Source: a virus
Lineage: Duplodnaviria; Heunggongvirae; Uroviricota; Caudoviricetes
Virus record (IMG/VR): IMGVR_UViG_2609460346_000011
Coordinates: 1 to 12,006 of that record
Reading direction: 5' to 3' (one strand)
DNA: 12,006 nt
Positions 2,086 through 11,618 of this stretch are shown here, in pieces (the first letter of the stretch is position 1; each line of letters starts with the position of its first letter). The notes under the pieces were generated by a model. The model was not told where the DNA came from. It ran no database searches and worked only from the letters and a program-made list of their open reading frames with translations. Made by a program: the position numbers and the translations under genes.

Positions 2086-2701
2086 TTATTTTCATTTTAT
2101 AGTCAGCATGGCGCGATATGCGCCTAAACACTTCATACAATAAGAAACATCACTTAACCAAAGATGCATTCATGGTTTAAAAGATGCTCTACCCTTGTTA
2201 AGGAAACCGGAGTAAACAGATATAACAAAATAAAAGAAAGTGGACTATCAGAGGGATATTTTCATCTGTACGTCACACGTAAGAAATATATTTCAAGGAG
2301 CTAAGTTTAAAATCAACATTTATTTACAGAGTATAAAATTGAGTTATTCCGGTTACATTAACCGGATTGGGTGAACTGTTATGATAAATACAAGTAATGG
2401 CGACGTGGGTATATTCTCCACGAGGCATAAACAAACAAACGCTTTAAACATCATAACCGGATGTCCGGGAATACAGCATTATCCTGCTGACTGGAGCGGG
2501 CACATTGCTACATGTGAGGGAAGGAGGCCGGGTACTGGCAGCAGAGTCAAAAAAAGAAGCTCGCTAAAGCTAGCGAGCCAACCAGTCAGTAGTACGCGAT
2601 GGATCTGACATTAAGAATAATAGGCAGAAATAATTATGGCTTTTTTACTCTTAAAAATCAATCACTCAGCGCAAGTGAGCAAAAATAATTTGCAATATTG
2701 C

Positions 2702-2731
2702 TTGACTCGCTTTTTTGTCATGGCGTATCGT
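2702..2731 (+). promoter_or_regulatory. Putative sigma70-like promoter (TTGACT, ~18 bp spacer, TATCGT) reading into the repeat region
   Basis: TTGACT at 2702-2707 and a weak -10 candidate TATCGT at 2726-2731, with AT-rich DNA upstream. Pattern match only. Confidence 0.25.
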
Positions 2732-2756
2732 TTGCCCGCACCTCATAAAGCGGGTG

Positions 2757-2941
2757 CCGGGTTTAGCAGCCTGAACAATCAAGCGGGTAGCCGCTATATT
2801 TCCGTAATGCGGTTTTTTTGTGCCCGTAATTCCACCCTACCCCGTATTATGGCGGGGCGGAATGGGGGGGCCTTTGCGCTCGCTGGTTCCTTGATTGCCA
2901 GTCTGCTAACCCTGTTACGTCCCGCCACCATGTTTAGCAGC
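2757..2941 (+). promoter_or_regulatory. Non-coding region with direct 10-mer repeats (GTTTAGCAGC at 2761-2770 and 2932-2941) and an internal partly complementary segment (2897-2914); candidate RNA-RNA regulatory module
   Basis: The exact 10-mer occurs twice 171 bp apart. The reverse complement of 2897-2914 (CAGGGTTAGCAGACTGGC) aligns with the first repeat context (CCGGGTTTAGCAGCCTG) at about 14 of 16 positions with one bulge. The 173-aa ORF called across this region translates to low-complexity sequence that does not look protein-like. Confidence 0.35.
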
Positions 2942-2983
2942 GTGCTGGCGAGACTCCGTAAACTTAATCAAGGAGCCGCCAAA

Positions 2984-3157
2984 ATGGCTATATCAACACG
3001 CCCTGATTTTATCTGGCGCTTTATGCAGTGCCACGGTAAAAATATTCGCCTTCATACCGTTACCGCTGCCAGTGAGCGCGAAGCGCGCGCCATGCTTCCG
3101 GCATCCCGTCTGGTCTTTGTTGCCCGTATCCGTGTCCGGGAGGCGTGCCATGTTTAA
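2984..3157 (+). CDS. Hypothetical small protein, 57 aa
   Basis: Internal ATG of the 2636..3157 ORF, with SD AGGAG at 2971-2975 eight nt upstream. Its stop overlaps the next gene's start. No family recognised. Confidence 0.45.
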   Translation: MAISTRPDFIWRFMQCHGKNIRLHTVTAASEREARAMLPASRLVFVARIRVREACHV

Positions 3158-3332
3158 GCTCCTTATCACCCTGATTAACTACCAGAACGGCGACGTTCGC
3201 CAGATGATTCATTCCTGGGAATATCCGACTTATGACGATGCATGGCGTGATGCCTGTCGTATGGCATATTCCCGCAATGACAAACAGGGGCGATTAACCC
3301 ACAAATGCGCAGTAAAAATCATGGAGGGGTAA
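3150..3332 (+). CDS. Hypothetical small protein, 60 aa
   Basis: ATG at 3150 preceded by GGGAGG (3135-3140) and overlapping the stop of the upstream ORF (translational coupling). The longer 3072 start lacks an RBS and overlaps the upstream gene. No family recognised. Confidence 0.4.
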   Translation: MFKLLITLINYQNGDVRQMIHSWEYPTYDDAWRDACRMAYSRNDKQGRLTHKCAVKIMEG

Positions 3333-3334
3333 CG

Positions 3335-3523
3335 ATGTACGAGATTCATATTAAATTGCGTAATGTGGTAACAGGAGAGGAAGAAAACTTCTACACGATA
3401 CGTAAATATAAATCAAAAGGAAAAGCGGCAAGGGACGCTATCAGGTATACGGAAGAAATTGCGCCGAAATATCAATTGCCAGAAGAAGAATTCACAGCAT
3501 CAGTGGTAAAGGTGAAGAAATGA
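3335..3523 (+). CDS. Hypothetical small protein, 62 aa (Lys/Glu-rich)
   Basis: ATG at 3335 with SD GGAGGGG five nt upstream; stop TGA overlaps the next start (ATGA at 3520-3523). No family recognised. Confidence 0.45.
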   Translation: MYEIHIKLRNVVTGEEENFYTIRKYKSKGKAARDAIRYTEEIAPKYQLPEEEFTASVVKVKK

Positions 3524-3738
3524 AAAGCCGTTCAATATCCCGTAAAAATAATGGCAGTGGTGAAAAACGTTTCTTTGTGTTGGGTTATGCCGTTAATAAA
3601 CGTGGGTTAACCAAACATGCACATGCAACGGTATACGGAACAGGACCGGGCGAAGCCATACGCCGCGCAGCCGAAGGGCTGGAAGAGCTGGGAATGACAC
3701 ATTTCAGGGCATTGAAGGTTACGCAGCTTTCCGCCTGA
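3520..3738 (+). CDS. Hypothetical small protein, 72 aa
   Basis: Start overlaps the upstream stop (ATGA) and a purine-rich stretch lies upstream. No family recognised. By position it could correspond to the small ORFs preceding the primase gene in P4-like elements. Confidence 0.45.
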   Translation: MKSRSISRKNNGSGEKRFFVLGYAVNKRGLTKHAHATVYGTGPGEAIRRAAEGLEELGMTHFRALKVTQLSA

Positions 3739-3805
3739 TTCCTTAATTACCAACTGATAACTGAATTAAATTTATATTTCGATCTTAACGGGTCGGGGAG
3801 TTTTT

Positions 3806-4105
3806 ATGTCTAAACGTCAGAATAGCGAAATTTTTTTAGATAGAGAATATGCTGGCTTTTTTACAGAAAGTGCAAAGGAAGATCTCACAGATGTGATTAA
3901 TCTCGTCAGTTTAATATCTGTGGTCTTTGGCGATAAAAATGGTAGAGCATCAGCAGAAATTATAAATGAAGAAATTGTATCTCTGTCTAACATTATTTAT
4001 AGGGAATTACAATCAATAAAATCTGGTATGCATTCATCCGGCGGAATTTTTTCATGGCATAGCGCCGAAACCGCCGGGATTGCCAAAGCAATAAGCAACG
4101 AGTAA
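3806..4105 (+). CDS. Hypothetical protein, 99 aa, encoded in a markedly AT-rich segment
   Basis: SD GGGGAG six nt upstream of the ATG. Codon usage and GC content are clearly lower than in the flanking genes. A perfect hairpin follows immediately downstream. Confidence 0.5.
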   Translation: MSKRQNSEIFLDREYAGFFTESAKEDLTDVINLVSLISVVFGDKNGRASAEIINEEIVSLSNIIYRELQSIKSGMHSSGGIFSWHSAETAGIAKAISNE

Positions 4106-6825: not shown

Positions 6826-7827
6826 ATGTCGATCAGAAAGATGGATGATGGGCGATGGCTGCTCGATATCAGGCCCCAAGGGGCGTACGGCAAACGGATA
6901 CGTAAAATTTTTGTCAGGAAAGGGAGTGCGGAGGTCTTCAAAGAACATATTTTACAGAATTTCCATAACAACCCATGGCTGGCTAAACCTGCTGATCGAC
7001 GGAGATTATCAGAGCTGCTTGATATATGGTGGATGCTTGATGGCCGTAACCAGGCTTACGGTGATACCTACAGGATTCGGATGGAGAAAGTGATTCGTGA
7101 AATGGGAGATCCGCGTGCCAGCCAGATGACGCAAAAATTTATGCTTGAGTATCGGTCAGAGAAATTACAGGCCGGCTTAATGCCATCCAGCATTAATCGT
7201 GACTTGTGCGTTCTGTCTACCATGTTCACGGTGCTGATTGAAGCTGAGGTCTTTCACAACCCGAACCCTGTACGCGGTATACGCAAGCTAAAAATTCAGA
7301 ATACAGAGATGGCCTTTCTTTCTGATGATGAGATTGAGCGGCTTCTTGAGCGACTGGAGGGGGATGCGCGTCGTGTTGCCATTCTGTGTCTTTCTACTGG
7401 TGCCCGATGGAGTGAAGCATCGGAACTACGTGGAGAGCACATCATTGGCAACCGGGTGACGTTCTTTAACACCAAAAACGGAAAATCCCGTTCGGTTCCT
7501 GTGGCTGATTCGGTCGTGCCGCTGATTAAGACCCACCGGACAGGGGTGTTGTATCAGGTTGATTATCTGAAGTTCCGGGAGATCCTTCAGGAGGTGAAGC
7601 CGGATTTACCGAAGGGGCAGGCTACGCATGTCATGCGTCATACATTTGCCACACACTTTATGATGAATGGCGGAAATATTGTTACGTTACAACGAATCCT
7701 GGGGCATGCCACGATTCAACAGACAATGACGTACGCGCATTTTTCTCCCGACTATCTGGCGGATGCCATGAGGTTTAACCCGATAGCTAACATGGCATTC
7801 ACTGAACAAGAAGAGCCAGCAGAGTAA
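6826..7827 (+). CDS. int: Tyrosine integrase, P2 Int-like family, 333 aa
   Basis: Near end-to-end resemblance to the P2 integrase as I recall it (MSIRKMDDGRWLLDIRPQG..GKRIRK...AILCLSTGARWSEA...GQATHVMRHTFATHFMMNGGNIVTLQRILGH...TYAHF). Catalytic Arg, HxxR box and Tyr are present. The ATG lies 2 nt after the primase stop, with the SD (AAGGAGGGGG) inside the primase 3' end. Confidence 0.85.
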   Translation: MSIRKMDDGRWLLDIRPQGAYGKRIRKIFVRKGSAEVFKEHILQNFHNNPWLAKPADRRRLSELLDIWWMLDGRNQAYGDTYRIRMEKVIREMGDPRASQMTQKFMLEYRSEKLQAGLMPSSINRDLCVLSTMFTVLIEAEVFHNPNPVRGIRKLKIQNTEMAFLSDDEIERLLERLEGDARRVAILCLSTGARWSEASELRGEHIIGNRVTFFNTKNGKSRSVPVADSVVPLIKTHRTGVLYQVDYLKFREILQEVKPDLPKGQATHVMRHTFATHFMMNGGNIVTLQRILGHATIQQTMTYAHFSPDYLADAMRFNPIANMAFTEQEEPAE

Positions 7828-7857
7828 CCCGCAGAACGCTACATTCACAGCAAAAGA

Positions 7858-7882
7858 GGTCAGTTTTCCACTGGCCTTTTTT
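7858..7882 (+). terminator. Rho-independent terminator after the P2-type integrase
   Basis: Stem GGUCAG/CUGGCC (one G-U pair) with a 7-nt loop, followed by a run of six T. Confidence 0.6.
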
Positions 7883-8073
7883 GTTGGCCAAAGCCAACGG
7901 TAACAGCAATGCGATGGAGGCCATATTGCAGTGGTGTCGCCATCAATTTTTTTTGCTCTCCCCCCTGGTTATCAGAAAGAGTCAAATAATGGCGAGATAC
8001 ATTTCAATAACAGAGAGTTAATGATAGAGATACAGAATAAGTGAGTTTGATTAACATTTTAAAGGGTCGCGCT

Positions 8074-8397
8074 AAAATCCGGGGGGGGGTGCGGAAACGG
8101 GTTACAAAGGTTACAAACAGAAAAATATATTATATATCAATACATTATAATACATTTAAAAGGTTACAAACGGGTTACAACAGGGTTACATGTAACCTTT
8201 ATGTAGTGGTTACTGTTGGTTACAGGTTAAATTTATAATTAATTGATAATTAATCTGTTTTTGAGAGCTGCAACCTCGTGTAACCTTCTGTAACCTCAAA
8301 AAGGTTACAAGAAATATGTTTTAAAATCATATGACTATAGTGTGTTTTAGGGGGTTGTAACCTTTGTAACCCGTTTCCGCACCCCCTACCGGATTTT
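8074..8397. repeat. Iteron cluster: about 12 copies of GGTTACA/TGTAACC in both orientations around AT-rich DNA, bounded by 43-bp inverted repeats (8074-8116 and 8355-8397, 41/43 identity); putative replication origin
   Basis: Counted directly: forward copies at 8100, 8109, 8162, 8173, 8184, 8219, 8303; reverse copies at 8191, 8279, 8289, 8356, 8365. Includes the palindrome GGTTACATGTAACC at 8184-8197. The interior is AT-rich and there is no convincing coding potential. Confidence 0.6.
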
Positions 8398-8614
8398 GAG
8401 GCAGAGCCCCAAAACAACTGGCCTGACCTCTAACAAAAATGCAACATTAATCATTGATTTTTTGGGGGCTGTCAGTCACGGGGAGTTGCCCTGTTGTTTG
8501 GCAGAAAAATGAAGTATGTACATGCGCGGCGGGGATGGTAAAAAACGTAATACACGCGGCGCAGTTGCCATAAAAAATCTCTCAAAAGCACTCTTTTTGA
8601 CGCTATTGTTCATC

Positions 8615-8644
8615 TGCACAAAAGTGCACAAATTTGCACAATTT
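8615..8644. repeat. Three direct TGCACAA(A/T) repeats phased at exactly 10 bp (8615, 8625, 8635), with a fourth copy at 8707
   Basis: Direct reading of TGCACAAAAG TGCACAAATT TGCACAATTT. Helical-turn phasing suggests a protein binding array or bent DNA. Confidence 0.4.
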
Positions 8645-9004
8645 TTTAGAGTAACTTTTTGCCCATCCGGCCCAGTACTGGCGCGCCCGGAGGGCGATTT
8701 CGTGCGTGCACAAAAAACGGTGAGTTTTTCGCGCGCAGGTGACGGGGGAACAGCACGCGTTTCAGGGGGTAAATTACATTTTCGCTAAAGGCTGCGGGAA
8801 TGCCCCGACCGGGTTAGTTTTATCGCCAGCCAGAGCCGTTCTTACGGCAAGAGAGAACTGATACGGGGAATGTGACGAGTGAGCATGGGAACGGCGCGCC
8901 CGTGCGTAATACGCGGCGACTGCTGCGGGTTTATTTGATACAGCCAGAGGGGGGCGGCAGAAGATATAATAGGTTAAATTTCACACCAGTAAGAGGAGCG
9001 TGAT

Positions 9005-9187
9005 ATGTCTTTCCCTTGCCCGGCCTGTGGCGCTTCAGCCCGCACCCGTGGTCGTTCGTTGGAAGAACACGAACAAAACATCTACAGAACGTATTACCAG
9101 TGCAATAATATTGAGTGTGGGGCTTGTTTTTGTACGCTTGAGTCGTTTGTACGCATTACTAAGCGCAGGAAGTCGAAAACTTCATAG
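9005..9187 (+). CDS. ogr: Ogr/Delta-family zinc-finger late-gene transcriptional activator, 60 aa
   Basis: SD AAGAGGAG upstream. CPAC...(x)...YQCNNIECGACFCTLESF matches the Ogr/Delta C-x2-C / C-x4-C zinc-finger signature and the FxTxES motif of P2 Ogr as recalled. Confidence 0.85.
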   Translation: MSFPCPACGASARTRGRSLEEHEQNIYRTYYQCNNIECGACFCTLESFVRITKRRKSKTS

Positions 9188-9237
9188 TGATTTGTATAAC
9201 ACAGCCAGCGAGTGTGACCGGCTGCGTTATTTCTGTA

Positions 9238-9471
9238 TTACGTCGTGTGGTTCTGGTCATTTGCCCAGGCCCACACATCCCCCGCTACATTGCGCCCGTT
9301 GCAGTCTTCTTCCTGCGTTTCCCCGGCCTTAATTCCCTGACTGATAAACATTCTGACGCACTGGGAGTAGTTCATCTCTCTGTCCTGACATATCTGATTT
9401 ATTTTATGGTCGATTTCGTGCGGGATACGAATACAGCGTAATACGCATCGCATTTTCTTTTGTTTTTTCAT
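9238..9471 (-). CDS. Small hypothetical protein (77 aa) with a ribbon-helix-helix-like N-terminus; possible DNA-binding regulator
   Basis: Minus-strand ATG at 9471 preceded by AGGGAGG at seven nt spacing. The N-terminus MKKQKKMRCVLRCIRIPHEIDHKINQICQDREMNYSQCVRMFI has a strand-helix-helix pattern reminiscent of Arc/CopG-type proteins. The overlapping + strand ORFs look like junk. Family assignment is tentative. Confidence 0.4.
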   Translation of the reverse strand: MKKQKKMRCVLRCIRIPHEIDHKINQICQDREMNYSQCVRMFISQGIKAGETQEEDCNGRNVAGDVWAWANDQNHTT

Positions 9472-9626
9472 AGTGTTGCCTCCCTGATTGTTTATGCCGG
9501 GATTTAACACCCGCGATACAAGAAAGCGTAATACAACAGTATTGTGAGCGTATTACGAGAACAAAATCGGCTGGAATGTATTACGCAATATGGAAAAAAT
9601 CGGCGTAAGTAAAAAAATGTATTACA
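9436..9626. promoter_or_regulatory. Divergent intergenic/promoter region with five copies of GCGTAATAC/GTATTACGC in both orientations
   Basis: Motif at 9436, 9526, 9549 (inverted), 9577 (inverted) and 9618 (partial). Related longer copies (CGTAATACRCGCGG) occur at about 8549, 8899 and inside the capsid gene at about 11177. Confidence 0.35.
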
Positions 9627-9636
9627 GGAGCAAATA

Positions 9637-10347
9637 ATGGATATAACTCAGGCAAGCGCCGAACATCAGGTATGTAAAGCACAGTTTGATACAGCCATGG
9701 CAAAACTCAGTGAACAGGAATCATTAATCACCAATCTGGAAGCAACTATCGAACAGACGAAAGGGGAGCTGGAATCTCTCGATCGTGACTGGCAGAACTC
9801 AATCCTGTCTGCGCTGGGCGTAAAAACGGAAGCCTCCGCGAAATTATCCATTCAGGCGGGTGTGGCGCGAGAAAATCTTGAGCGTCTGCGGGTGCTGCAT
9901 GATGAGGCGCGCATCAGGCTACTGGAGTGTCGTTATAACGCGGCAGAGGCTGGTTGTGCTTACGAAAGCATTGATAATAAGTTGCGGGCAGAGATATTTG
10001 CAAAAGCACTTCCCGAACTGATTAACGAGCTGACCCCTGCTCTGTTATTGATTCGTGGTTTATGTGAGCTGCTTGGCCAGCCGCTGTATAACGCAGAAAA
10101 GAAAATATGCGAAACACTGAAAGCGACAGATACTGCTGAAAGTGTCGGGATGATTCGCGGCCGGATTAACGATACCGAAAGCGACACCTCCAGCCCGCTG
10201 CGTTATTGCCCGGAGAAACTCCCGGATTCGGTAAGCCGCGCAATCAGGAACGCCCCTTCACCTGTACAATGGAGCGCGGCGCGACAGAATCCAGAAAAAA
10301 TGCGCGACCTTGCGGAGGGCAGAGAACTCTGCCGGGGGTGGCAGTAA
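9637..10347 (+). CDS. Coiled-coil alpha-helical protein, 236 aa; putative capsid scaffold or size-determination-like (Sid/Psu/GpO-like) protein
   Basis: SD AGGAG seven nt upstream. The sequence is rich in Ala/Leu/Glu heptad-like segments. It sits immediately upstream of, and is translationally coupled to, the capsid gene (TAATG overlap at 10345-10349). The coding call is reasonably safe; the function is inferred from position and composition only. Confidence 0.5.
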   Translation: MDITQASAEHQVCKAQFDTAMAKLSEQESLITNLEATIEQTKGELESLDRDWQNSILSALGVKTEASAKLSIQAGVARENLERLRVLHDEARIRLLECRYNAAEAGCAYESIDNKLRAEIFAKALPELINELTPALLLIRGLCELLGQPLYNAEKKICETLKATDTAESVGMIRGRINDTESDTSSPLRYCPEKLPDSVSRAIRNAPSPVQWSAARQNPEKMRDLAEGRELCRGWQ

Positions 10348-11618
10348 TGGGCGGTCTGAATACTCCACATTTGCACGGCGCTGATATAGTGAGCCGACTC
10401 AGGGGATTAATGTCCCGGAATCGCCTGAAAGCAAACACAGCAAGCATAAGCGATGAGACGCGTCGCGCGCTGGACAATGAATATCAAAAACTGGAGCGTG
10501 AGCTTGAGCTTCACACCCTGCATACTGCAAGCGGTGGGGGTAATAACGACGGCATTGAGCGTTATAATTGCACTGCTGATTCTGTTGTATCACAACGAAA
10601 TCAACAGGCTCAGATGGTTTTCAATTGCGCTATCGAGTCGATAACCGGAAAGCATCCGAAGGATTTGCACTTTTCTGGTGACACTGCGCGCTATTCGTCA
10701 GAAGTTGAACCCGTTCCCCGCCAGAGTGCAACGCTTGCCAGTGGATGGCAGGCAAATTTCCTTGCTGAAATAACTCCCGTGCCTGTTACGGATATATCAG
10801 GTCGGGTTGTGCTGGTAGACGCTTCGGGGCCGTTGGCACGTACATCGCCACCTCACGAGCGCCGTTCGCCACTACAGGCGCATTCACTGGTTTCAAGGGG
10901 CTACCGCTGCGAGCAGGTTAATTTTGATTTTGCGCTGAACTACGACAATGTTGATGCTCACACATCCGCAAACGGTCTTGAAGGAAGCGCACGGGCTGCT
11001 TTTGAACGCCGGAAATGGCTGGATTTGATTCAGATTGGTTTTAACGGTACGCACTATGCCGATACATCAGATCCCGGAACATATCCGGGGCGTGATGATT
11101 GCGGCGTGGGCTGGTTGCAGAAGTTTCGAAATGAAGCGGCGGGAAGGGTTATCAGCGGCCTTTCTGTTTCATCACCGAAAAGTAATACACGCGGTACACA
11201 CCATACGATAGATGCGCTCGTTCTGGATGCCTGGCAATCCATGATTGATGAACAGTGGCAGGAAGGCATTGTGGCCGTATGCAGTCACAATACGCTGGTC
11301 CGTAAGCAATGGCCTTTGATAAACCGTCTTGATCCATCGCAGATGAATCAGGAAATTTTGCTTAACGAGGAAATCATTAAAAATCCCGTTCTGGGGAATC
11401 TCCCGGCTGTGACCGTTCCATTTTTCCCGGACAATGCTGTATTGATCACACCTCTTGCCAATCTGTGTCTGTACTGGCAGCGTGGTTCCGTTCGTGGCCT
11501 GGTAAAAAACGAGCCTCAGTATAATCGCCTCGCGTTCTATGAGTCCTGTAACCTTGACTGGGTGGTGGGGCAATATGAGGCAGGGTGCTTACTGGATGGG
11601 ATTGACTGGAAAGAATAG
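10347..11618 (+). CDS. Major capsid protein, P2 GpN-like family, 424 aa from the ATG at 10347 (alternative internal start at 10614)
   Basis: Extended motif agreement with P2 GpN as I recall it: CEQVNFDF, GFNGTHYADTSD, GVGWLQKFRNEAAGRV, IDALVLDA, GNLPAVTVPFFPDNAVLITPLANL, YESCNLDWVVGQYEAGCLLDGI. SD-like GGGGGTGG lies upstream of the 10347 ATG. About 89 residues precede the region that aligns with the GpN N-terminus. Confidence 0.8.
   Translation: MGGLNTPHLHGADIVSRLRGLMSRNRLKANTASISDETRRALDNEYQKLERELELHTLHTASGGGNNDGIERYNCTADSVVSQRNQQAQMVFNCAIESITGKHPKDLHFSGDTARYSSEVEPVPRQSATLASGWQANFLAEITPVPVTDISGRVVLVDASGPLARTSPPHERRSPLQAHSLVSRGYRCEQVNFDFALNYDNVDAHTSANGLEGSARAAFERRKWLDLIQIGFNGTHYADTSDPGTYPGRDDCGVGWLQKFRNEAAGRVISGLSVSSPKSNTRGTHHTIDALVLDAWQSMIDEQWQEGIVAVCSHNTLVRKQWPLINRLDPSQMNQEILLNEEIIKNPVLGNLPAVTVPFFPDNAVLITPLANLCLYWQRGSVRGLVKNEPQYNRLAFYESCNLDWVVGQYEAGCLLDGIDWKE

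What the first reader, a model, noticed from the sequence alone, without database searches (positions are those of the whole stretch)
9238..9636. Opposite-strand RHH-like regulator and a divergent promoter region with GCGTAATAC repeats
A small ORF with a good SD and a ribbon-helix-helix-like N-terminus is encoded antisense between ogr and the scaffold/capsid genes. The 165 bp between its start and the scaffold gene contains the 9-mer GCGTAATAC in direct and inverted orientation, resembling an operator array. This would be a dedicated repressor/operator controlling the capsid operon, in addition to Ogr-type activation.
Basis: partly seen in the sequence, partly recalled or inferred. Interest (0 to 1): 0.45.

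Follow-up and report, generated by a model that had tools for sequence, protein, structure and literature searches.

The report
Satellite late-gene repressor with palindromic operators
A small, previously uncharacterised DNA-binding protein of the ribbon-helix-helix type sits next to the capsid genes of a P4-like phage satellite in E. coli, and probably keeps them (and their activator gene) switched off by binding a repeated 9-bp palindrome wrapped around the activator-dependent promoter.

Summary
ORF 9238-9471(-) has a GGGAGG Shine-Dalgarno, and GCGTAATAC occurs 4 times against 0.06 expected.

The motif is really a 9-bp palindrome, YGTAWTACR. All 8 copies in the 12-kb window lie in 8546-9626 (0.35 expected), not only in the 165-bp spacer.

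Every locus has a T(G/C)T-N12-ACA/AGA Ogr box 28.5-29.5 bp upstream of a palindrome. That places the palindrome between the inferred -35 and -10. Other copies lie at about -76, about +15, inside the RHH gene, and upstream of ogr.

Lineages whose β-strand reads SIRRT instead of VLR(C/T/S) carry TGTCWGACA at the same positions. The probable helper, P88, has the Ogr box and an Ogr homologue but no palindrome array and no RHH.

Best reading: an autoregulated RHH repressor laid over an Ogr-type late promoter. Binding and the sign of regulation are untested. This is a new member of a known kind.

The parts
9238..9471 (-). 77-aa ribbon-helix-helix-like gene. Predicted β-strand about residues 9-16, helix 18-30, helix 35-57, poorly modelled linker (pLDDT below 50 at residues 57-60), C-terminal helix 62-72 with invariant W69.
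9479..9484 (-). Shine-Dalgarno GGGAGG, 7 nt upstream of the ATG of the RHH gene
   Evidence: Sequence.
9502..9507 (-). Inferred -10 (TTAAAT) of the RHH promoter. Relatives have GATAAT at the same distance from the ATG.
   Evidence: Comparison of intergenic regions. Inference; the consensus scan did not call it.
9527..9535 (.). Palindrome O_b, CGTAATACA. About -76 from the inferred late transcription start, and over the inferred -35 of the RHH promoter.
   Evidence: Conserved at -106 to -123 from the downstream ATG in all 7 VLR-type loci (a variant in L007).
9543..9560 (+). Ogr-box-like element TGT-N12-AGA (one mismatch to TGT-N12-ACA)
   Evidence: Same position as exact TGT-N12-ACA in L007/L008/L014/L029/L011 and TCT-N12-ACA in L028/L006/L017 and in the P88 late promoter.
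9549..9557 (.). Palindrome CGTATTACG embedded in the spacer of the Ogr box (seen only in the E. coli window lineage)
9577..9585 (.). Palindrome O_c, TGTATTACG. Centred 29.5 bp downstream of the box centre, about -26 from the inferred start, between the inferred -35 and -10.
   Evidence: Present at a fixed 28.5-29.5 bp from the box in 8 of 9 loci.
9595..9600 (+). Inferred -10 (AAAAAT) of the late promoter. Relatives have AAAAAT, GATAAT, GATAAG or TATAAC at the same place.
   Evidence: inference.
9618..9626 (.). Palindrome O_d, TGTATTACA, abutting the SD (AGGAG 9626-9630) of the 236-aa gene; about +15 from the inferred start
9437..9445 (.). Palindrome O_int, CGTAATACG, inside the RHH ORF. It is written in codons GTA-TTA-CGC for V10-L11-R12.
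   Evidence: GTA TTA CG is kept in 5 of 7 VLR-type loci while neighbouring synonymous sites vary.
9234..9242 (.). Palindrome TGTATTACG across the stop codon of the RHH gene
   Evidence: Salmonella loci have a copy near the 3' end of the gene.
8905..8913 (.). Palindrome CGTAATACG (perfect 11-mer GCGTAATACGC at 8904-8914), 96 bp upstream of the ogr ATG and 56 bp upstream of a perfect TATAAT (8965-8970)
8546..8554 (.). Distal palindrome CGTAATACA, left of the TGCACAA repeats and the cos-like region
   Evidence: Equivalent copies at -1042 to -1143 in L008, L014, L028, L011, L006 and L017; none in L007, and L029 is too short to show one.
9005..9187 (+). ogr/delta-like zinc-finger activator gene (60 aa), convergent with the RHH gene
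   Evidence: Pfam Ogr_Delta E=3e-11. Present next to the RHH gene in all 9 loci.
9637..11618 (+). Target operon: 236-aa coiled-coil protein (9637-10347, possibly Sid-like) and a P2-family major capsid homologue (10347-11618)
   Evidence: Pfam Phage_cap_P2 E=1e-71. gpN in PDB 7jw1 E=8e-56. Sid match E=0.45 only.

Best explanation
ORF 9238-9471(-) encodes a ribbon-helix-helix DNA-binding protein with an Arc/Mnt-like layout: an N-terminal β-α-α domain plus a C-terminal helix. It belongs to the late module of a P4-like satellite integrated at tRNA-Arg.

Inferred mechanism:
- A dimer inserts its β-ribbon into the major groove of the 9-bp palindrome YGTAWTACR. By alignment to Arc, the base-facing residues are L11, C13 and R15.
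- The capsid operon promoter copies the helper's Ogr-dependent late promoter, with a box at about -55 and a -10 but no recognisable -35.
- Palindromes lie at about -26 (O_c), +15 (O_d) and -76 (O_b). In this lineage one more lies inside the Ogr box itself (9549-9557).
- Occupancy would block RNA polymerase and, in this lineage, the activator. The 236-aa/capsid operon would stay silent until repression is relieved.
- O_b also covers the inferred -35 of the RHH gene's own promoter, and O_int lies about 50 nt into its transcript. That would give autoregulation.
- Copies upstream of ogr would put the activator gene under the same control.

Shown here: the gene is real and conserved, the fold prediction is RHH, the palindrome array is non-random, positionally conserved and in register with the box, and it co-varies with the late module and the RHH β-strand.

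Inferred only: binding, transcription starts, the sign of regulation, oligomeric state, and the signal that relieves repression.
For: 1. Real gene. PGAP calls it. An exhaustive HMMER search and a profile search found homologues at 30-37% identity. All of them are divergent from a ~240-aa gene plus P2-capsid gene and adjacent to an ogr-like gene. R12, R15, P17, D21, I24, Y35, C38 and W69 are invariant.

3. Motif. There are 8 YGTAWTACR copies, all within 1.1 kb, against 0.35 expected. The top perfect palindrome in each lineage recurs 2-6 times.

4. Positional conservation at 30-37% protein identity (centres relative to the downstream ATG):
- window: -1087, -728, -399, -196, -106, -84, -56, -15
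- L008: -1139, -900, -782, -361, -196, -109, -59, -15
- L014: -1108, -855, -751, -201, -114, -65
The box-to-O_c distance is 28.5-29.5 bp in 8 of 9 loci.

5. Co-variation. Loci with β-strand SIRRTIRIP (L006, L017) carry YGTCWGACR at the equivalent positions. VLR(T/S) loci carry TGTAWTACA, and the window (VLRC) prefers CGTAWTACG.

6. Specificity tracks the late module. L017 has early proteins 92-100% identical to the window, but RHH 33%, Ogr 55% and a different palindrome. Primase type does not track the motif.

7. Not an Ogr or helper element. P88-like phages share the cos region (about 81%), an Ogr homologue (51%) and the TCT-N12-ACAACAAAA box at the same distance from the ATG. Yet P88 has only 1 YGTAWTACR in 35.8 kb, none at its late promoter, and no RHH homologue. 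No RHH homologue was found in 50,697 phage records.

8. The spacer from 9526 to 9607 is invariant among E. coli variants that differ elsewhere by 2-4%.

9. GTA-TTA-CG codons for V-L-R are retained in 5 of 7 VLR-type loci although neighbouring synonymous sites vary.
Against: - No experimental binding, transcription-start or expression data exist.
- All Pfam, NCBIfam and PHROG RHH hits are below curated thresholds. A PDB profile search found nothing.
- The model is a monomer, so the β-ribbon dimer is not modelled.
- Co-variation rests on about three or four independent lineages. RHH and the Ogr-like gene always co-occur, so linkage alone cannot separate them.
- The SIRRT-type loci lack O_b and O_int, and L007 lacks O_c.
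- The distal copies flanking the cos-like region have no obvious promoter.
- Within the shallow E. coli clade, non-synonymous changes are not depleted: 13 non-synonymous against 6 synonymous.
- The consensus scan found no sigma-70 promoter for the RHH gene.
- Placing the Ogr box at -55 rests on my own knowledge of P2 late promoters, not on data for this element.
Confidence: 0.55

Rival explanations
1. The RHH protein does bind the palindromes, but it is not a simple repressor. It could be an activator or co-activator, or a timing switch that helps or antagonises the Ogr-like protein. For example, it could activate from the -76 site while repressing its own gene.
Against: O_c, the most conserved copy, lies between the inferred -35 and -10, and O_d lies at +15. 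Both are typical repressor positions. In the window one copy sits inside the Ogr box.
Confidence: 0.15
2. The palindromes are recognised by the Ogr-like zinc-finger protein (island or helper) as an alternative TGT-N3-ACA arrangement. The RHH protein would then have another role or other targets.
For: The palindrome ends, TGT...ACA, are the Ogr half-sites. The ogr-like gene is always adjacent, so its specificity could co-vary too.
Against: A separate N12 box is present at a fixed place in all 9 loci. P88 has a 51%-identical Ogr and the same box but no palindrome array. The window mostly uses CGT...ACG ends. Island Ogr proteins are 42-55% identical across groups, without an obvious change matching the A/T to C/G switch, whereas the RHH β-strand changes L11 to R. 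L008 carries an in-frame stop in ogr yet keeps 7 YGTAWTACR copies, 6 of them perfect palindromes.
Confidence: 0.1
3. The palindrome array and the RHH protein serve DNA architecture or packaging rather than transcription. For example, they could mark or bridge the satellite's cos region for helper terminase, or act as partition- or iteron-like sites.
For: Copies at 8546 and 8905 bracket the TGCACAA repeats (8615-8641) and the cos-like 19-mer (8738-8756), a region about 81% identical to the portal-proximal non-coding region of P88-like phages. RHH proteins such as ParG, omega and TraM act as centromere- or relaxosome-binding proteins (one search lists omega and TraM).
Against: Half of the copies are locked in register to promoter elements of the divergent genes. 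The helper's own cos region and genome lack the motif. The motif does not track primase type.
Confidence: 0.1
4. The ORF is an orphan RHH antitoxin remnant or a non-functional ORF, and the palindromes are bound by an unidentified host or helper factor.
For: The best sequence hits are to antitoxin-type RHH families (CopG_antitoxin, RelB/DinJ, VapB). dN/dS within E. coli shows no clear constraint.
Against: No toxin gene is adjacent; the neighbours are ogr (convergent) and the 236-aa gene (divergent) in every locus. The MazEF pair at the island end has its own antitoxin. Deep conservation with invariant residues. Two different palindromes occur in E. coli islands, which argues against a host factor.
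Confidence: 0.05

Closest known systems
Phage P22 immI repressors Arc and Mnt (RHH)
   Same: - Small RHH proteins. Mnt, like this protein, has an N-terminal RHH domain plus a C-terminal helix (82 aa against 77 aa).
- Their operators are short pseudo-palindromes placed within the core of one promoter of a divergent pair, giving repression plus autoregulation (my own knowledge).
- Arc is among the fold matches, and hhalign gives the same register.
   Different: - There is no significant sequence similarity.
- The operator here is a 9-bp palindrome repeated 8 times over 1.1 kb, not one or two operators.
- The repressed promoter is activator-dependent (Ogr type).
- The host element is a P4-like satellite, not a lambdoid phage.
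CopG/ParD/RelB-type RHH antitoxins and plasmid copy-control repressors
   Different: No toxin partner or replication gene is adjacent. The target is a capsid operon.
P2/P4 late promoters activated by Ogr/Delta (TGT-N12-ACA)
   Same: A box with this consensus (PMC3931495) lies at a fixed position in all 9 loci and in the P88 late promoter. There is no recognisable -35. An ogr/delta-like gene is adjacent.
   Different: Neither the P88 late promoter examined here nor, to my knowledge, the P2 and P4 promoters carry flanking YGTAWTACR palindromes or a dedicated RHH gene. The window's box has one mismatch, and a palindrome sits inside its spacer.
Satellite master repressors (SaPI Stl; P4 CI RNA immunity)
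   Same: A satellite-encoded negative control that keeps satellite functions silent until a helper is present. This island also carries the P4-type C4 antisense RNA.
   Different: Stl is an HTH protein that controls the early ori/excision module and is relieved by helper proteins. Here the repressor is an RHH protein sitting on the late (capsid) module, and no inducer is known.

Membership tests
Ribbon-helix-helix (Arc/MetJ/CopG) superfamily of DNA-binding proteins | β-strand followed by two helices (β-α-α) in about 45 residues | tested here: met
Ribbon-helix-helix (Arc/MetJ/CopG) superfamily of DNA-binding proteins | Obligate dimer forming a two-stranded antiparallel β-ribbon that enters the major groove | not testable with these tools
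   Only monomer prediction is available. The N-terminal strand is unpaired in the model.
Ribbon-helix-helix (Arc/MetJ/CopG) superfamily of DNA-binding proteins | Match to a curated RHH sequence family above its threshold | tested here: not met
   CopG_antitoxin 15.1 bits (cut-off 28). RHH_9 12.3 (23.4). RelB_DinJ 16.6 (45.65). phrog CopG-like E=0.01. No precomputed Pfam domain on any family member.
Ribbon-helix-helix (Arc/MetJ/CopG) superfamily of DNA-binding proteins | Binds short (pseudo)palindromic or tandem operators, usually including its own promoter | tested here: inconclusive
   A non-random, positionally conserved palindrome array that co-varies with the protein surrounds the gene. 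Binding itself was not tested.
Type II toxin-antitoxin RHH antitoxin | Co-transcribed adjacent toxin gene | tested here: not met
   The neighbours are a convergent ogr-like gene and a divergent 236-aa/capsid operon in all loci.
Ogr/Delta-dependent late promoter (for 9543-9636) | TGT-N12-ACA dyad upstream of a promoter that lacks a -35 | tested here: inconclusive
   The window has TGT-N12-AGA. Five relatives have the exact dyad and three have TCT-N12-ACA, as does the P88 late promoter. The consensus scan found no sigma-70 promoter.
Ogr/Delta-dependent late promoter (for 9543-9636) | Dyad centred near -55 from the transcription start, and dependence on Ogr/Delta | not testable with these tools
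   No transcript data. The start at about 9607 is inferred from the box and the -10-like AAAAAT at 9595-9600.
P4-like phage satellite (context of the finding) | Integrase, alpha-type primase, C4/CI antisense RNA, delta/ogr-like activator, cos site related to the helper | tested here: met
   Integrase and Toprim primase (phrog_1139). C4 RNA 67 bits. Ogr_Delta. cos-like region about 81% identical to P88-like phages.
P4-like phage satellite (context of the finding) | Sid and Psu capsid-size and decoration genes | tested here: inconclusive
   The 236-aa protein matches Sid only at E=0.45 (collinear) and a Psu-like phrog at E=0.014. No Psu was found. Unlike P4, the island carries its own gpN homologue.

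The most novel reading that the evidence does not exclude
The RHH/palindrome system could be the master late switch of an undescribed lineage of P4-like satellites that carry their own diverged P2-type capsid and a Sid-like protein and parasitise P88-like (Xuanwuvirus) phages. In this reading the conserved C-terminal helix (W69) senses a helper or satellite protein, so that repression of ogr and of the capsid operon is relieved only during helper late development. The copies bracketing cos would couple this switch to packaging.
Probability: 0.15. Interest if true: 0.7.

Novelty: new member of a known kind. Interest (0 to 1): 0.45.

Why it matters
Phage satellites must keep their morphogenesis genes silent until a helper is active. 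For P4 this is explained by dependence on the Ogr/Delta activator alone.

Here a satellite lineage copies the helper's activator-dependent promoter but wraps it in its own operators, with a private RHH protein beside it. That implies a second, satellite-specific layer of late-gene control, and probably control of the activator gene as well.

The system gives a compact, testable repressor-operator pair (a 77-aa protein and a 9-bp palindrome) with natural specificity variants: CGTAWTACG, TGTAWTACA and TGTCWGACA, paired with β-strands VLRC, VLRT/S and IRRT. These variants are useful for studying RHH recognition and for orthogonal regulators.

It also flags an apparently undescribed group of capsid-encoding P4-like satellites.

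Tried and rejected
- Sequence searches of PDB with the family profile found no RHH hit.
- Foldseek on the first, low-confidence model gave Arc on top but at E about 3.
- Scans of genome contigs, viral contigs and metagenome contigs with the RHH alignment returned only near-identical E. coli copies and one spurious archaeal hit.
- The 236-aa and full RHH alignments were too divergent for pattern scans.
- A profile search with the 236-aa family found no new lineages, so no set of modules lacking the RHH gene could be assembled.
- The 'distant' BLAST in 5,426 E. coli genomes found only copies at 95.7% identity or more, in 57 genomes.
- The sigma-70 and terminator scan was uninformative. The hairpin between ogr and the RHH gene is no better than shuffles (z=0.03).
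- dN/dS within E. coli was uninformative.
- PADLOC gave no defence-system match.
- LexA, CRP, IHF and the P2 Cox box were considered as binders from memory and rejected, because their consensus sequences do not fit and because the motif differs between two E. coli islands.
- Replication iterons were rejected because primase type does not track the motif.
- Literature searches found no description of this module. A source for the -55 position of the Ogr box could not be retrieved.

Full report
**Context**

The window is an E. coli chromosomal island inserted at tRNA-Arg between yfdC and dsdC. It is 99.9% identical to strain TOE17. Only 57 of 5,426 complete E. coli genomes carry it, all at 95.7% identity or more.

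The island carries:
- an integrase, an HTH gene and an Icd-like gene overlapping a C4 antisense RNA and isrK
- a Toprim primase (phrog_1139) and a second integrase
- a ~1.2-kb non-coding stretch
- an ogr/delta-like zinc-finger gene (9005-9187, +)
- the finding's ORF (9238-9471, -)
- a 236-aa coiled-coil gene (9637-10347, +) and a P2-family major capsid homologue (10347-11618, +)
- MazEF

It is therefore a P4-like satellite, unusual in carrying its own gpN homologue.

**Observation**

The ORF, its Shine-Dalgarno (GGGAGG, 7 nt from the ATG) and the 9-mer are all present. GCGTAATAC occurs 4 times against 0.06 expected.

The true unit is a 9-bp palindrome, YGTAWTACR. There are 8 exact copies, all between 8546 and 9626, against 0.35 expected and with none elsewhere in the 12 kb. 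The core GTAATAC occurs 12 times against 1.1 expected, and 9 of these lie in that 1.1 kb.

**Is the ORF a gene?**

Word-seeded search found only near-identical E. coli proteins and frameshifted fragments. Exhaustive HMMER over 1.8 billion representatives found four proteins at about 32-36% identity. A profile search then added Salmonella and E. coli members, one of which UniRef names 'Arc family DNA-binding protein'.

Every one whose contig I read lies in the same place. It is divergent from a ~240-aa gene plus a P2-capsid gene, inside an island with integrase, HTH_17 and primase. An ogr-like gene is always on the other side. R12, R15, P17, D21, I24, Y35, C38 and W69 are invariant.

Within the shallow E. 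coli clade the substitution pattern is uninformative, with 13 non-synonymous and 6 synonymous changes, the non-synonymous ones densest in residues 51-77 (8 of 13).

**Fold**

- Sequence-profile hits to RHH families recur but stay below threshold.
- With a 15-sequence alignment, AlphaFold gives pLDDT 85-93 over residues 11-50. The model has an extended N-terminus, helices 18-30 and 35-57, a poorly modelled stretch at residues 57-60, and a helix at 62-72.
Residues 11, 13 and 15 would then face the DNA.

The RHH assignment is well supported as a prediction. The dimer could not be modelled.

**The cis-elements**

Intergenic regions of nine loci were aligned on the downstream ATG. They share one architecture:

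| Element | Sequence | Notes |
|---|---|---|
| O_b | palindrome | upstream of the box |
| Ogr box | T(G/C)T-N12-A(C/G)A | 9-11 bp after O_b |
| O_c | palindrome | centred 28.5-29.5 bp downstream of the box centre (8 of 9 loci) |
| -10-like hexamer | AAAAAT, GATAAT, GATAAG or TATAAC | downstream of O_c |
| O_d | palindrome | next to the Shine-Dalgarno |

TGT-N12-ACA is the P2 late-promoter consensus (PMC3931495). It is exact in five loci, TCT-N12-ACA in three, and TGT-N12-AGA in the window (9543-9560), which also has an extra palindrome inside the spacer.

From my own knowledge, the box is centred near -55 in P2 late promoters. On that basis the late start is near 9607, which puts O_c at about -26, O_d at about +15 and O_b at about -76.

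On the other strand a -10-like hexamer lies 31-37 nt upstream of the RHH ATG (GATAAT in five loci, TTAAAT in the window). O_b then falls on the -35 position of that promoter (inference).

Further copies are positionally conserved between the window and the Salmonella loci. They lie inside the RHH ORF (-196 in both), near its 3' end, upstream of ogr, and about 1.1 kb upstream.

The internal copy is written in codons GTA-TTA-CG for V-L-R. These codons are kept in 5 of 7 loci while neighbouring synonymous positions vary. Among E. coli variants, 9526-9607 is invariant.

**Who binds?**

Four lines point to the RHH protein.

1. Co-variation. Loci whose β-strand reads SIRRTIRIP carry YGTCWGACR at the same positions. 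VLR(T/S) loci carry TGTAWTACA, and the window (VLRC) prefers CGTAWTACG. The L11-to-R change coincides with a gain of G:C pairs in each half-site. That is what an added arginine-guanine contact would predict (inference).
2. Mosaicism. L017 shares 92-100% identical early proteins with the window, but its late module is diverged (RHH 33%, Ogr 55%) and its palindrome differs. Early and immunity proteins and host factors are therefore excluded. Primase type does not track the motif.
3. The helper. Window 8614-8780 is about 81% identical to the portal-proximal non-coding region of P88-like P2-family phages. P88 has an unannotated Ogr homologue (51% identical) and a TCT-N12-ACAACAAAA box at the same distance from its capsid-operon ATG. 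But it has only one YGTAWTACR in 35.8 kb and no RHH homologue. No RHH homologue was found in 50,697 phage records. The palindromes are thus a satellite-specific addition to a helper-type promoter, and an Ogr-type protein does not require them.
4. L008 has an in-frame stop in its ogr-like gene yet keeps its palindromes.

**Mechanism proposed**

An autoregulated RHH repressor sits on a helper-mimicking, Ogr-dependent late promoter, and probably on the ogr gene's own promoter region as well.

Weak points:
- There is no binding or transcript evidence.
- Independent lineages are few.
- RHH and Ogr are always linked.
- The SIRRT group lacks O_b and O_int, and L007 lacks O_c.
- The copies flanking the cos-like region have no assigned promoter, which keeps a packaging or architectural role open.

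**Comparison and novelty**

The system works like P22 Arc/Mnt or plasmid CopG: a small RHH protein, palindromic operators within a promoter core, and divergent genes. It is not a sequence member of any curated RHH family, and it is not an antitoxin because it has no toxin partner.

I found no paper describing this protein, the palindrome, or capsid-encoding P4-like satellites of this type. The library is incomplete.

I rate it a new member of a known kind. Interest is moderate (0.45) for the regulator itself; the satellite lineage it belongs to may deserve more.

Noticed in passing
window 8614-8780 (TGCACAA repeats at 8615-8621, 8625-8631, 8635-8641 and 8707-8713; 19-mer GGTGACGGGGGAACAGCAC at 8738-8756): This non-coding stretch is about 81% identical to the region next to the portal gene of P88-like (Xuanwuvirus) P2-family phages. 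It is probably a cos mimic that names the helper. The PGAP 'hypothetical protein' at 8516-8788 overlaps it and is probably spurious.
   Followed up: partly
window 9637-11618: The satellite carries its own P2-family major capsid homologue. It is only 35-39% identical to phage gpN proteins and has an N-terminal extension of about 100 aa. It is preceded by a 236-aa coiled-coil protein with a weak collinear match to P4 Sid (E=0.45) and to a Psu-like phrog. I found no description of capsid-encoding P4-like satellites in the searchable literature.
   Followed up: partly
window 2738-2932: Rfam isrK (2738-2819) and C4 antisense RNA (2845-2932) lie inside or overlap the 173-aa Icd-like ORF (2636-3157). 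This is P4-type RNA immunity.
   Followed up: no
L017 12649-14112 against window 2636-4105: An E. coli island with a very different late module (RHH 33%, capsid 49%, a different primase type) has early-region proteins 92-100% identical to the window. This is modular exchange between early and late halves of these satellites.
   Followed up: partly
L008 about 8284-8460 (also L009, L010): The ogr-like gene of this Salmonella island has an in-frame TAA (FPCP*CGSS), while the RHH gene, the palindromes and the Ogr box are intact.
   Followed up: no
L030 (phage P88, NC_026014) 34479-34643: An Ogr/Delta homologue, 51% identical to the island protein, is not annotated in the RefSeq record.
   Followed up: no
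L006, about 560-330 bp upstream of its ogr start: The distal TGTCTGACA palindrome lies inside a direct repeat of about 120 bp, present in two copies.
   Followed up: no
window 6826-7827 and 7828-8540: A second tyrosine recombinase (Int_N plus Phage_integrase) follows the primase directly and is conserved in several related islands. About 700 bp of unannotated sequence follows it.
   Followed up: no
window 9301-9303 (codon 57 of the RHH gene): The window has Cys at position 57, where the other E. coli variants have Arg or His. It lies in the poorly modelled linker.
   Followed up: no
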